The notes under the pieces were generated by a model. That model worked only from the letters and a program-made list of their open reading frames with translations. It made no database searches and had not been told where the DNA came from. A stretch of 64,000 nucleotides of DNA from an uncultured Alphaproteobacteria bacterium (GTDB lineage Bacteria > Pseudomonadota > Alphaproteobacteria > CAAHEQ01 > UBA3637): assembly GCA_944392145.1 (NCBI GenBank), contig CALXVS010000004.1, forward strand, positions 5,833 to 69,832, in the 5' to 3' direction. The position numbers were made by a program, and so were the translations under genes. Shown here in pieces: positions 1 to 5,485 of this stretch (its first letter is position 1; each line of letters starts with the position of its first letter).

Positions 1-3000
1 ATTTTGTACTTGTCCCAGAAACTTTACCCATTTCCGATCCATCGGGTGCCAATAACATACCGTTACCCAAAATTGTACCAAATCGCTCGCCATTCAAATC
101 CATAACAGATCCATCCGGCATAATTGAAGCAATTTTTTCACCGGCAGAGTTGATAACATCACACCCCGTAATAATACCCAGCAAATTGCCATCTTTATCC
201 CGCAGGACTGTGATATCGTCCATTGGGTTGCCTTTTTCATCCAACAACTCACCGTTTGCACCTAATTTACCCAACCGGCGCCCTGTCTTGGGATCAATAA
301 CACTGCCATCAGGTAAAACCTTAAATACTTCTAATCCTGTCGGATCACGATAAGTACCATCCAACGCGAAGGTTCCCGCCAATGTGCCATCCGGATTAAA
401 GATCAATTCTTCATCCCGTGATGCCATCCGACCGATGACTTCCCCTTTCAGGTTCACGGCCGTTCCTTTTCCATCACCTAACATTTTTCCGATAACAGTG
501 TTTTTGGCATCCACAATCGTCCCATTAGCTTTGACACGGCCGATTAAATTACCGTCCAAATCAAACACAGGTCCGCGGTCAACCACATGACCAATCACAT
601 TTCCCGCATTATCCACAACCGAGCCGTCATTTTTGGCACATCCCATATTGACACCACTCGGGTCTACAACCGTTGAATCCGGCATTGTCCGTCCCAAATA
701 ATCCCCCGCCGGAGACAAAACCAACCCGTTCCGCGTCACACGGCCGATTTTTTCACCTTTGGCATCCACGGCCCATTTATCCACCTGGATATGCCCAACA
801 ACTTCACCGCGACCGTTGATAACCTGACCATTATAAGCGGTTTGTCCAACCACTTTACAATCATTCGTAATCAAAGGATCGGGAATCATCGCCCCCAAAA
901 TTTTCAAATTGGAATTGCCTTTAACCGCACCATTGATAGCAACAGTTCCGACCGTTTCACCGGCGTAACTCATTAACTTGCCATCACCCGCCAATGACCC
1001 CAACACACCGCCATTTTGATCAATGGCTGTCCCGAAAGGAATAATCACACCGGCCAAAGGCGTATCCGTTCCTAAAATGGTTCCGTCATCCAAAATCCGA
1101 TGAATTTTTTTATCAGCCGCATCTATAATATCCCCCACAACCGTTGTGCGACCAATAACATCACCTTTATATCCCAAAGCCAAACCTTGTTTAGCAATGG
1201 CACCGGCATACGGCATGGTTGTATATAACCCGCGATCTGTCACACCAACCGCTGTGCCATCTGTCATAATACGAGCCATGAAAGCGTTATTTGCACCGAT
1301 AACGCCCCCATCGGCCGACACAGTCCCAATTTCAATCGCATCATCTGTTACAGCAACACCAAACGGAATCCGACCACCCGCCCATAATGTATCCGGCGAC
1401 AACGCCGATCCAAACGGCATATACGACGCAACCTTTTTCCCATTTTTGAAAATTGCCGCACCTGCTCCTGAGGTTCCAATAACAGCACCATCACGACCAA
1501 TAAACGTTTCCGGTAAATATACACCGCCTAAAACACCGCCTTGTTTATTGAAAACAACCGATGTACCTGCCTGTGTTGCAACCTCTTTACCGTCAGTTAA
1601 AATGCCACCGGTTATCACGGTCTGACCGCCTAATGATAAATTGTTTGCAATCATCAAACCGTCTCTTACCTGACCACCGGAAACCTGCTTGGTCATATTC
1701 AAGGCCTGTTGATTCATCATCAAAGTTCCTAAAACCTTATTGCCACCGACTTGCATGACGGTCGCATTGGGGGCCGTCACACCCCACAGCTTACCGGAAA
1801 CAAGGTCTGTAATAAATGGTGACCCCGTCATAATCCGACCTACCATTTTACCTTTAGCACTTACACTTGTGGGTGATATAACAACGCCTTGCTCTTGTCC
1901 TTTTAAATTAACAATAGCACCCGTTTCCGACATAAACCCAACAGTTTTAGCATCATCATTGTAAACAGCAGCATCAAACGGCACATATGTCCCCAGCACA
2001 TTACCGTTACCGGTTAAAACACGGTTATCAAAACCGACATATCCCAAAACTTGTTTATTGTCTTCAATCGCCCCATCAAAGCGTGTCCATCCCATAAAAG
2101 CACCATTGATATCCACCGCAATCCCCGGCGCCATCAAACGACCGATAACAACTCCTGCGCTATCATAAACATATTCCGAAACATCTAACCGCCCTAATCG
2201 GGTTCCCATGGCATTCAGTGCATCACCGTTTGGTGCTGTTGCCGATATAAATTTACCTTGTTCATCAACAATAACACCCCGCGGCGCCAATGCACCCAAT
2301 AAAGCACCTGATTTATCTGTCAATACACCGGCCGCTCCAACTTTACCTAATGTTGTTCCTTTGGCTGAAACCGTTCCGTCAAACCCGGACCACCCCAGTG
2401 TTTGACCATCTAATCCCATGTAAACGCCGATACGAACGGTTTTTCCAATAATTTCACCATCCGTATTCATAACTAATCCAAATGGTGTTGCCACGCCGAC
2501 CGAACGGCCGGATTTATCTTGAACCGAACCGGTATAACCGACTGAACCTAAGACACCTTCCGCTCCAACTGCCAACATTGGCGTTTCAAAAAACACCTTA
2601 CCCAACACTTTGCCTTCGTCCGAAACGGCCAATCCATTCCCTAATACGTGTCCAATTTTTGATTGTTCAAGACTTATAACATCACCACGGTCATTTACCG
2701 TAGCCACTTGCTTACCAGCGGCCGAAAACACACGGCCTTGCAAAATACGTGTTCCAATCAACTTGCCATTTTGGTCTACAACCGTACCGTCGGCACGAAT
2801 TACCCCTAAACGTTCACCGGCACTGCCCAACAACTGACCGTCAATTTGCATTGTCCCTAAATAAGTATTATTCAAATCGGCAAATGTCGTTTTATCTGGC
2901 AACATAGCTCCAATAACTTGCCCTTTATCCAGGCTGACCGCCGTCAAATCGGGCAAAATTTGCGCGAATCGATCTCCGGCCTGATTCACCGCAGCACCGG

Positions 3001-5485: not shown

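What the first reader, a model, noticed from the sequence alone, without database searches (positions are those of the whole stretch)
1..5485. Giant (>1800 aa) membrane-anchored protein built from ~17-aa 'LPDGTVVDxNGNVIG' beta-hairpin-like repeats, encoded by near-identical 51-bp DNA repeats, in the VirB10 position of a T4SS locus
A continuous minus-strand frame from 5485 to the window edge was not reported by the ORF track (no stop in window). It has a VirB10/TrbI-like bitopic N-terminus (short cytoplasmic tail, one TM) and follows the VirB9-like gene. Size and repeat content recall Helicobacter CagY (VirB10 homologue whose repeat recombination tunes secretion) and Legionella DotG. Near-identical tandem DNA units (e.g. 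3261/3341/3392) are substrates for recombinational expansion or contraction.
Basis: partly seen in the sequence, partly recalled or inferred. Interest (0 to 1): 0.75.

Follow-up and report, generated by a model that had tools for sequence, protein, structure and literature searches.

The report
Giant fixed-length hairpin-repeat VirB10 protein
This is the start of a 2294-residue VirB10 (type IV secretion channel subunit) from an uncultured alphaproteobacterium, in which the usual short periplasmic linker is replaced by about 97 beta-hairpin repeats that, unlike the repeats of Helicobacter CagY or Legionella DotG, are ancient, fixed in number and under purifying selection.

The parts
1..5485 (-). 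First 1828 codons of a 2294-codon virB10 homologue. The gene continues about 1.4 kb beyond window position 1. The TrbI domain (aa 1981-2173) and the following virB11-like gene lie outside the window (L004:17708-18286 and 18674-19672).
   Evidence: Open frame. Full gene in L001-L006, with L004 identical to the window. Pfam Bflower_2 E=8.6e-93 and TrbI E=2.4e-28.
5426..5485 (-). Cytoplasmic tail, aa 1-20 (MKKERRLSSSEQYIKSSNKK). The motif SEQY[IV]K.SN is conserved in orthologues and in the split-form N-halves.
   Evidence: 7 K/R in 20 aa. Conserved tails in P0024, P0086 and the L013/L014 N-halves.
5363..5425 (-). Single transmembrane helix, about aa 21-41 (inner-membrane anchor).
   Evidence: Hydropathy scan. 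Sequence LVLIGLLCLVIGFVAWLFISE.
4925..5254 (-). ASH/PapD/MSP-like beta-sandwich domain, about aa 78-187.
4898..4930 (-). Motif STDSKDCVICE (aa 186-196) with a CxxC pair. D, S and both C are invariant in 18 aligned orthologues and the rest of the motif is at least 90% conserved. The model has low confidence here.
   Evidence: Invariant and near-invariant columns in alignment A1. pLDDT <50 at model residues 145-157. A related C..C motif occurs in the split-form N-halves.
1..4786 (-). Beta-hairpin repeat array, aa 234 to 1828 in the window (it ends at aa ~1882 outside the window). Period 17 aa, consensus about LPDGTVVDxNGNVIG, about 97 unit-lengths.
   Evidence: Autocorrelation. Repeat HMM. AF2 shows alternating 5- and 3-residue strands with pLDDT about 85-95. 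Pfam Bflower_2, Bflower and DUF3659.
4415..4423 (-). P-W-G motif (aa 355-357; P invariant, W and G at least 90% conserved) marking the point that corresponds to the mature N-terminus of the Sec-exported hairpin-TrbI proteins of split-form relatives.
   Evidence: A1 conserved columns. The junction HMM scores 92.6 bits at aa 360-472 against <=53 at every other register, and P0129 is colinear with aa 360-2182.
3206..3508 (-). Lineage-specific ~95-aa expansion (aa ~660-760) that holds the only near-identical units (aa 686, 703 and 730; 76-88% identical).
   Evidence: Absent in P0004, P0005, P0007 and P0039; half present in P0003. Conservation falls to 0.03-0.15 here. Unit identities.
3336..3457 (.). 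The only tandem DNA repeat detected: a 51-bp unit, 2.4 copies, 83% matches. The longest exact repeat (28 nt) starts at window 3426 and 3294 (minus-strand coordinates).
   Evidence: TRF. Exact-repeat scan with null.
5507..7252 (-). VirB9/CagX-like protein, 581 aa, with a C-terminal SPOR (peptidoglycan-binding) domain.
   Evidence: Pfam CagX E=1.7e-12, SPOR E=1.7e-4. 40% identical to the VirB9 of L013.
7365..8084 (-). VirB8-like protein (238-239 aa).
   Evidence: Pfam VirB8 E=1.5e-12.
8104..8280 (-). 58-aa lipoprotein (lipobox L-V-A-C), VirB7-like by size, lipobox and position.
   Evidence: Sequence. Conserved as a 58-60-aa gene in L009-L014. 50% identical to the L013 copy.
8363..9001 (-). Second VirB8-like protein (211-212 aa).
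   Evidence: Pfam VirB8 E=1.9e-10.
8998..14945 (-). Seven co-oriented ORFs (554, 256, 256, 399, 220-254, 125 and 105 aa) with signal-peptide-like N-termini and no family match. They may be accessory parts or substrates. Association is unproven.
   Evidence: No Pfam or NCBIfam hits. Six of the seven pass the hydropathy threshold at the N-terminus; the 256-aa ORF does not but looks similar by eye. Present in the close relatives L011 and L012, different in L009, absent in L010.

Best explanation
The frame is the virB10 gene of a chromosomal, highly divergent VirB-type (T4A-like) secretion system of an uncultured alphaproteobacterium, probably associated with an animal gut. Shown: the protein has the VirB10 N-terminus (cytoplasmic tail and one TM helix) and a VirB10 C-terminus (TrbI beta-barrel with a helix-loop-helix antenna), and it sits between virB9 and virB11. 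Shown: the roughly 1900 residues in between consist of an ASH/PapD-like beta-sandwich followed by about 97 seventeen-residue beta-hairpins of the beta-flower/DUF3659/YD-like type. The number and order of hairpins are conserved across more than 100 divergent orthologues, and they are under purifying selection. Inferred: because one end is anchored in the inner membrane and the other end forms the outer-membrane channel, the hairpin array is periplasmic and takes the place of the proline-rich linker of canonical VirB10. Inferred: with the usual 13-14 copies per core complex, the arrays (about 3.3 MDa for 14 copies) build a large, rigid periplasmic ring or collar around the secretion channel. This would be the counterpart of the collar density attributed to the repeat regions of DotG and CagY, coupling the inner-membrane and outer-membrane sub-complexes at a fixed geometry. 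Supporting inference: some relatives encode the same thing as two genes, an inner-membrane-anchored tail-TM-ASH-hairpin protein without TrbI and a signal-peptide-bearing hairpin-TrbI protein. This suggests hairpin arrays associate with each other, so the link between the membranes can be covalent (this gene) or non-covalent (split form). The array is a fixed structural element, not a rapidly varying one.
Against: No structure or localisation data exist for this system. Oligomeric state, periplasmic location and ring formation are inferred from canonical VirB10 biology. No 85- or 102-aa super-period is seen. About 1650 residues of beta structure per subunit is far more than is needed to span a periplasm. 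VirB4, VirB6, VirB2/3/5 and VirD4 were not found among the window ORFs scanned, so completeness and function of the T4SS are unproven. dS is saturated (>=1.4), so dN/dS values are approximate. The C-terminal model has only moderate confidence (pLDDT 66.8).
Confidence: 0.6

Rival explanations
1. CagY-type tunable VirB10: the repeats are substrates for in-frame recombination that changes repeat number between strains and so modulates secretion or evades immunity.
For: A small cluster of similar units exists (TRF 2.4 x 51 bp at 83%; one 28-nt exact repeat). It lies in a lineage-specific ~95-aa expansion with an intermediate state in P0003, so duplication has happened here over species-level time. 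The paralogous N-half gene in L013 has younger higher-order tandem repeats (318 nt x 2.5 at 82%). Precedents are CagY and DotG (PMC6761968).
Against: There is no length variation in 6 assemblies or in 14 of 15 listed cluster members. Repeats are positionally orthologous, 29% identical within the protein against 35-89% between orthologues. Selection is strongly purifying. Segment lengths are conserved to within a few residues down to about 40% identity. DNA identity is too low for efficient homologous recombination across 97% of the array.
Confidence: 0.06
2. The hairpin array is mainly a binding module for peptidoglycan, glycans or lipids. It would tether or space the machine in the cell wall, rather than acting as a self-assembling collar.
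For: [quoted passage not shown] The fold is placed in one clan with the lipid-binding Tubby domain (PMC10584680). A relative combines Bflower repeats with an OmpA peptidoglycan-binding domain (P0191). The partner VirB9 carries a SPOR domain.
Against: No binding site or ligand is known for any beta-flower protein. About 97 units with individually conserved sequences suggest specific protein packing rather than multivalent binding of a repetitive polymer. The confident single-chain model (pTM 0.71) is compatible with either reading. This rival is not exclusive of the best explanation.
Confidence: 0.2
3. The array is displayed on the cell surface as an adhesin or contact sensor for a host or prey cell.
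For: Surface exposure was historically proposed for CagY and suggested for DotG (PMC6761968). YD/RHS-like hairpin motifs (weak RHS_repeat and YD hits) occur in many surface and toxin proteins.
Confidence: 0.1
4. Degenerate relic: the gene cluster is a decaying remnant with no working secretion system.
For: Only virB7-like, virB8 (x2), virB9, virB10 and virB11 are clustered. No virB4, virB6 or virD4 was found in the 64-kb window. The core proteins score far below NCBIfam equivalog cut-offs.
Against: A 6.9-kb ORF is kept intact in more than 120 clusters under purifying selection. The core order is conserved across deep divergence. T4SS genes can be scattered around a genome. From my own knowledge, not checked in a paper here, Rickettsiales keep virB3/B4/B6 apart from virB8-D4.
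Confidence: 0.03

Closest known systems
Helicobacter pylori CagY (VirB10 homologue of the Cag T4SS, 1927 aa)
   Different: The repeats are unrelated in sequence and in predicted structure: 17-aa beta-hairpins here, and no CagY repeat family was hit. CagY repeats recombine and vary between strains (PMC6761968). Here the repeat number is fixed, units are positionally orthologous and selection is purifying. The host lineage and the rest of the gene set also differ.
Legionella/Coxiella DotG (IcmE), the VirB10 homologue of T4B systems
   Same: It has a TM anchor, a repeat-rich middle domain and a C-terminal TrbI domain, and its repeat region is proposed to form the 13-fold collar. Some uncultured gammaproteobacterial IcmE proteins (about 800 aa, for example the P0176 cluster with MCD6047152.1 'icmE') carry the same Bflower-type hairpins.
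   Different: L. pneumophila DotG has 10-aa repeats whose number varies even within a species, giving 1000 to >1500 aa. Here the repeats are 17 aa, number about 97, and are fixed. The context is VirB8/VirB9(CagX)/VirB11, not Dot/Icm.
Canonical VirB10/TraF/TrwE (about 380-400 aa)
   Different: The short proline-rich periplasmic linker is replaced by about 1900 residues (ASH-like domain plus hairpin array). Proline is only 3.6% in the array. The protein is about six times larger.
Beta-flower proteins (Pfam PF21784/PF21785, clan CL0395; Durairaj et al. 2023, PMC10584680)
   Same: The repeats match these families far above threshold (Bflower_2 306 bits against a cut-off of 38) and share the [DNEQ]xxG hairpin-tip motif.
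   Different: The described beta-flowers are small, about 100-residue stand-alone domains of 4-6 hairpins with unknown function. Here about 97 hairpins are embedded in a secretion-system subunit, and no 5-hairpin super-period is detectable.
Rickettsiales vir homologue (rvh) T4SS
   Same: Alphaproteobacterial and chromosomal, with duplicated virB8 genes and a virB8-virB9-virB10-virB11 cluster apart from the other vir genes. The hallmarks are listed in PMC11077975.
   Different: No virD4 follows virB11. Duplicated VirB9 and VirB4 and multicopy VirB6 could not be checked. From my own knowledge, rvh RvhB10 is of ordinary size.

Membership tests
VirB10/TrbI family | C-terminal TrbI domain above Pfam gathering score | tested here: met
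   PF03743, 99.7 bits against a cut-off of 35, E=2.4e-28, aa 1981-2173, covering profile positions 2-188 of 188. The domain lies outside the window but on contigs identical to it.
VirB10/TrbI family | Fold of the C-terminal domain matches solved VirB10 subunits, including the helix-loop-helix antenna | tested here: met
VirB10/TrbI family | Bitopic N-terminus: short cytoplasmic tail and a single TM helix | tested here: met
   Hydropathy and charge distribution. No dedicated topology predictor was available.
VirB10/TrbI family | Proline-rich periplasmic linker between the TM helix and the barrel | tested here: not met
   It is replaced by an ASH-like domain plus a hairpin array with 3.6% Pro. 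This feature is typical of the family rather than defining, and CagY and DotG also lack it.
VirB10/TrbI family | Genomic linkage to virB8, virB9 and virB11 | tested here: met
   Window and loci L001-L006 and L009-L014.
VirB10/TrbI family | Part of a complete T4SS (VirB4 ATPase, VirB6, VirB3, and a pilin or coupling protein) | not testable with these tools
   None was found among the window ORFs scanned. Whole genomes could not be scanned. A weak TrbL/VirB6-like gene lies near the cluster in relative L014.
CagY-type recombining VirB10 | Many long, highly identical in-frame DNA direct repeats | tested here: not met
   One TRF array of 2.4 copies at 83%. Longest exact repeat 28 nt.
CagY-type recombining VirB10 | Repeat-number (length) variation between strains | tested here: not met
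   Six assemblies with 0-19 SNPs all encode 2294 aa. 14 of 15 listed members of the 90% cluster are 2294 aa and the other is a fragment. Caveat: these are short-read assemblies.
CagY-type recombining VirB10 | Sequence homology of the repeat region to CagY repeats | tested here: not met
   No CagY repeat family among the Pfam hits.
DotG/IcmE (T4B) | 10-aa [KR]xAG[FY]... repeats and a Dot/Icm gene context | tested here: not met
   The period is 17 aa. The neighbours are VirB8, CagX and a T2SSE/VirB11-type ATPase.
Beta-flower (Pfam CL0395) | Match to PF21785/PF21784 above threshold and the [DNEQ]xxG tip motif | tested here: met
   Bflower_2 306-311 bits and Bflower 82-84 bits. Units read D-x-N-G-N.
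Beta-flower (Pfam CL0395) | Closed shallow barrel of 4, 5 or 6 hairpins | tested here: inconclusive
There is no 68-, 85- or 102-aa super-period beyond simple decay. No PDB counterpart was found. The AFDB libraries were unavailable.
RHS/YD-repeat shell proteins | YD repeats forming a spiral beta-shell | tested here: not met
   Only weak local sequence hits (RHS_repeat E=8e-7 to 2e-8; TIGR01643 6.5e-8). There is no structural match to Tc/Rhs/teneurin shells.
Rickettsiales rvh T4SS | Duplicated VirB8, VirB9 and VirB4, multicopy VirB6, no VirB5 (PMC11077975) | tested here: inconclusive
   VirB8 duplication is seen. Only one VirB9 is in the window. VirB4 and VirB6 are not in the window. The lineage is labelled only 'Alphaproteobacteria bacterium'.

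The most novel reading that the evidence does not exclude
This is a previously undescribed class of expanded type IV secretion machine, ancestral to a clade of uncultured gut-associated Alphaproteobacteria. In it, VirB10 builds a multi-megadalton periplasmic beta-hairpin lattice (about 1350 hairpins per 14-mer) of fixed geometry. The inner-membrane and outer-membrane modules are joined by hairpin-hairpin association, either covalently (fused gene) or non-covalently (split genes). Together with the LptF/G-LptD fusion found in the same lineage, it would indicate an envelope whose two membranes are stapled together by single polypeptides at a fixed distance.
Probability: 0.3. Interest if true: 0.8.

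Novelty: new variant of a known kind. Interest (0 to 1): 0.62.

Why it matters
Repeat-expanded VirB10 proteins (CagY, DotG) are the least understood parts of the large T4SSs, because their repeats vary, are poorly predicted and are unresolved in cryo-EM maps. This family offers a third, apparently independent expansion whose repeats are regular, fixed in number, confidently modelled (pLDDT 85) and present in more than 100 divergent sequences. That may make it a tractable system for asking what a giant periplasmic VirB10 region does. The natural fused and split gene forms are a ready-made experiment on whether VirB10 must physically connect both membranes in one chain. The finding also gives the first functional context for the beta-flower fold, which was described only as small proteins of unknown function. 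It further shows that uncultured gut-associated Alphaproteobacteria carry a conserved, unusual secretion machine.

Full report
**Observation.** Translating window 5485->1 on the minus strand gives 1828 codons without a stop. The ORF lister omits it only because it runs off the window edge. The sequence has a strict 17-residue period, with similarity autocorrelation peaks at lags 17, 34, 51 and 68. A repeat HMM finds about 48 clear units between aa 234 and 1882, spaced at multiples of 17, which makes 97 unit-lengths. The N-terminus is a basic 20-residue tail followed by one hydrophobic helix. The upstream gene matches CagX/VirB9, and two VirB8-like genes precede it. The DNA-level claim is overstated. 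Tandem Repeats Finder reports only 2.4 copies of a 51-bp unit at 83% identity (3336-3457). Other copies are 60-79% identical. The longest exact direct repeat in the whole gene is 28 nt, against a synonymous-shuffle null with mean 16 and maximum 25.

**Anatomy.**
- aa 1-20: cytoplasmic tail.
- aa ~21-41: TM helix.
- aa 186-196: the motif STDSKDCVICE, in which D, S and both cysteines are invariant across 18 orthologues.
- aa 234-1882: the hairpin array.
- aa ~1883-1975: a linker containing a helix.
- aa 1976-2178: the TrbI barrel.
- aa 2179-2294: an acidic, proline-rich tail. It ends in an aromatic residue, and 105 of 120 family members end in [LMYI]F.

**Is it CagY-like?** No.
- A full-length search returned at least 120 clusters (90% identity), all 2063-2609 aa (median 2202). 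All carry TrbI together with beta-flower-type repeat families (Bflower, Bflower_2 and/or DUF3659). Where named, they are called TrbI/VirB10 family, DUF3659 domain-containing or hypothetical protein, mostly from Alphaproteobacteria MAGs.
- Units within the protein are on average 29% identical to each other. Each unit is 35-89% identical to the unit at the same position in orthologues, tracking overall divergence. That is positional orthology, not concerted evolution.
- The segment aa 45-660 is 616 residues, give or take a few, in nearly every orthologue down to about 40% identity.
- Against the 86%-identical orthologue, dN/dS is 0.03-0.07 in the repeats, 0.011 in TrbI and 0.10 in the tail. dS is saturated, so these ratios are approximate. 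Strain-level SNPs are 8-16 synonymous against 1-3 nonsynonymous.
- All six assemblies and 14 of the 15 listed members of the 90% cluster are exactly 2294 aa.
- The one dynamic spot is aa ~660-760 (window 3206-3508).

By contrast, DotG repeat number varies even within a species and CagY repeats recombine (PMC6761968).

**Wider family and a fused/split relationship.** I ran an exhaustive profile search with the N-terminal domain plus the first 25 repeats. It found 84 representatives at E<=1e-30, including about 16 giants. It also revealed a size series of hairpin-plus-TrbI proteins:
- about 700-900 aa with a classical VirB10/IcmE N-terminus. One cluster is annotated icmE from a gammaproteobacterial MAG.
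- about 1400-1900 aa with a signal-peptide-like N-terminus (AxA|QEITAIDFNG...).

In the loci of the 1400-1900-aa group (L013, L014) the order is VirB8, 60-aa lipoprotein, VirB8, VirB9, a 1137-1307-aa protein, the hairpin-TrbI protein, then VirB11. The extra protein has the same tail motif, TM helix, ASH-like domain, a CxxC motif and LPDGTVVDxNGNVIG hairpins. It is colinear with aa 1-1370 of the giant (E=1e-121) but has no TrbI domain. The mature N-terminus of the exported halves matches aa 360-472 of the giant specifically (92.6 bits against 53 or less elsewhere), just after a conserved P-W-G motif, and P0129 is colinear with aa 360-2182. So the gene in this window equals an inner-membrane anchor module fused to a hairpin-TrbI module. 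The alternative is that the two-gene form arose by fission plus expansion. The direction is unresolved. The N-half gene of L013 carries young higher-order tandem repeats (318 nt x 2.5 at 82%), whereas the TrbI-bearing half carries none.

**Context.** The conserved core is a 58-aa lipoprotein (lipobox LVAC, VirB7-like), VirB8 (two copies here), VirB9 (here with a C-terminal SPOR domain), the giant VirB10 and VirB11. Unrelated housekeeping genes flank it in different relatives, which points to a chromosomal, vertically inherited system. Seven upstream ORFs with signal-peptide-like N-termini have no family assignment and are not conserved in all relatives. No VirB4, VirB6 or VirD4 was found among the window ORFs scanned. 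The VirB8 duplication recalls the Rickettsiales rvh system, whose hallmarks are listed in PMC11077975, but I could not test the other hallmarks. The organism is known only as an uncultured alphaproteobacterium. A gut habitat is my inference from the record titles and MAG labels.

**Mechanism.**
- Shown: the VirB10 termini and fold, the T4SS linkage, the regular hairpin array, its fixed length, purifying selection, and the existence of a split form.
- Inferred from established VirB10 biology: the array is periplasmic, because it lies between an inner-membrane anchor and the outer-membrane barrel. It replaces the proline-rich linker. It is present in 13-14 copies per core complex, which is about 3.3 MDa for 14 copies.

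I propose that it forms a rigid periplasmic ring or collar that couples the inner- and outer-membrane sub-complexes at fixed geometry. This is analogous to the collar attributed to the DotG and CagY repeat regions. The split form suggests that hairpin arrays associate with each other. Rivals are a peptidoglycan- or lipid-binding role (not exclusive), surface display, a CagY-like tunable element (largely refuted) and a relic (unlikely).

**Novelty.** The sequences are already in public databases, and some are annotated as VirB10 family. I found no paper describing them or linking beta-flower repeats to T4SS. I rate this a new variant of a known kind: a third type of repeat-expanded VirB10, with a different repeat fold and the opposite evolutionary behaviour to CagY and DotG.

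Noticed in passing
window 17025-20261 (minus strand): A single 1077-1078-aa ORF combines the inner-membrane LPS permease domain LptF/LptG (aa 8-348, E=5e-69), an LptD_N/LptC-like stretch (aa ~386-481) and the outer-membrane LptD barrel (aa 642-1013, E=1e-46). The fusion is conserved in at least 120 clusters, all 1007-1096 aa and all with both domains. Several lie on contigs of exactly the same length as contigs carrying giant VirB10 orthologues, so they may be the same contigs. 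This would be a one-polypeptide LPS bridge between the two membranes. I found no description of it in the searchable literature.
   Followed up: partly
L013:5075-8998 and 9001-13233; L014:5584-8997 and 9001-14667: Relatives encode the giant VirB10 as two adjacent genes: tail-TM-ASH-hairpins without TrbI, then signal peptide-hairpins-TrbI. The TrbI-bearing half therefore has no inner-membrane anchor of its own.
   Followed up: yes
window 5507-7252 (minus strand), aa 529-579: The VirB9/CagX-like protein is twice the usual size (581 aa) and ends in a SPOR peptidoglycan-binding domain (E=1.7e-4; also flagged faintly in L011).
   Followed up: no
window 8998-14945 (minus strand): Seven consecutive ORFs (554, 256, 256, 399, 220-254, 125 and 105 aa) have signal-peptide-like N-termini and no Pfam or NCBIfam match. 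They sit directly upstream of virB8. They are present in the close relatives L011 and L012, different in L009 and absent in L010.
   Followed up: partly
P0171, P0176 (cluster with MCD6047152.1 'icmE [Gammaproteobacteria bacterium]'), P0196: VirB10/IcmE proteins of about 700-900 aa from other bacteria also carry Bflower/DUF3659-type hairpin repeats before the TrbI domain. The hairpin insertion is therefore not restricted to the giant alphaproteobacterial clade.
   Followed up: partly
C-terminus of the family (outside the window; P0001 ends ...SDRMF): 105 of 120 orthologues end in [L/M/Y/I]-F, and the split-form and mid-size proteins end in ...LF. A conserved C-terminal aromatic residue follows an otherwise variable acidic, proline-rich tail.
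   Followed up: no
window 4898-4930 (minus strand), aa 186-196: The motif STDSKDCVICE, with a CxxC pair, lies between the ASH-like domain and the first hairpins. D, S and both cysteines are invariant in 18 orthologues. Several cysteines inside the hairpin array are also invariant. AF2 confidence is low at the motif.
   Followed up: no
window ~34000-44000: A low-GC block (0.32-0.37, against 0.41-0.48 in the left half of the window). It encodes an arylsulfotransferase (39033-40769) and an EF-Tu-like GTPase (37242-38453), with a DUF4143 AAA ATPase at its edge (43135-44358). It is possibly horizontally acquired.
   Followed up: no
window 48611-57898: An apparent defence island. It has a reverse transcriptase matching defence-associated RT groups (UG4 E=6e-29) followed by a 649-aa unknown and a DUF2201 metallopeptidase/VWA protein. 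It also has a DrmD/SNF2-like helicase fragment (54015-55511) and a type III methyltransferase fragment (57005-57898). A further DNA methylase lies at 62260-63396.
   Followed up: partly
L007 (CAVDQP010000011.1): A 15-kb contig carrying a ~2446-aa orthologue of the giant VirB10 (by ORF call) is deposited in a MAG labelled Holdemanella biformis (Firmicutes). P0004 is similarly labelled Lactobacillales. Both are probably binning errors.
   Followed up: no
P0191 (740 aa): A protein combining Bflower hairpin repeats with a C-terminal OmpA peptidoglycan-binding domain. It hints that this repeat type is used more widely in envelope-associated proteins.
   Followed up: no
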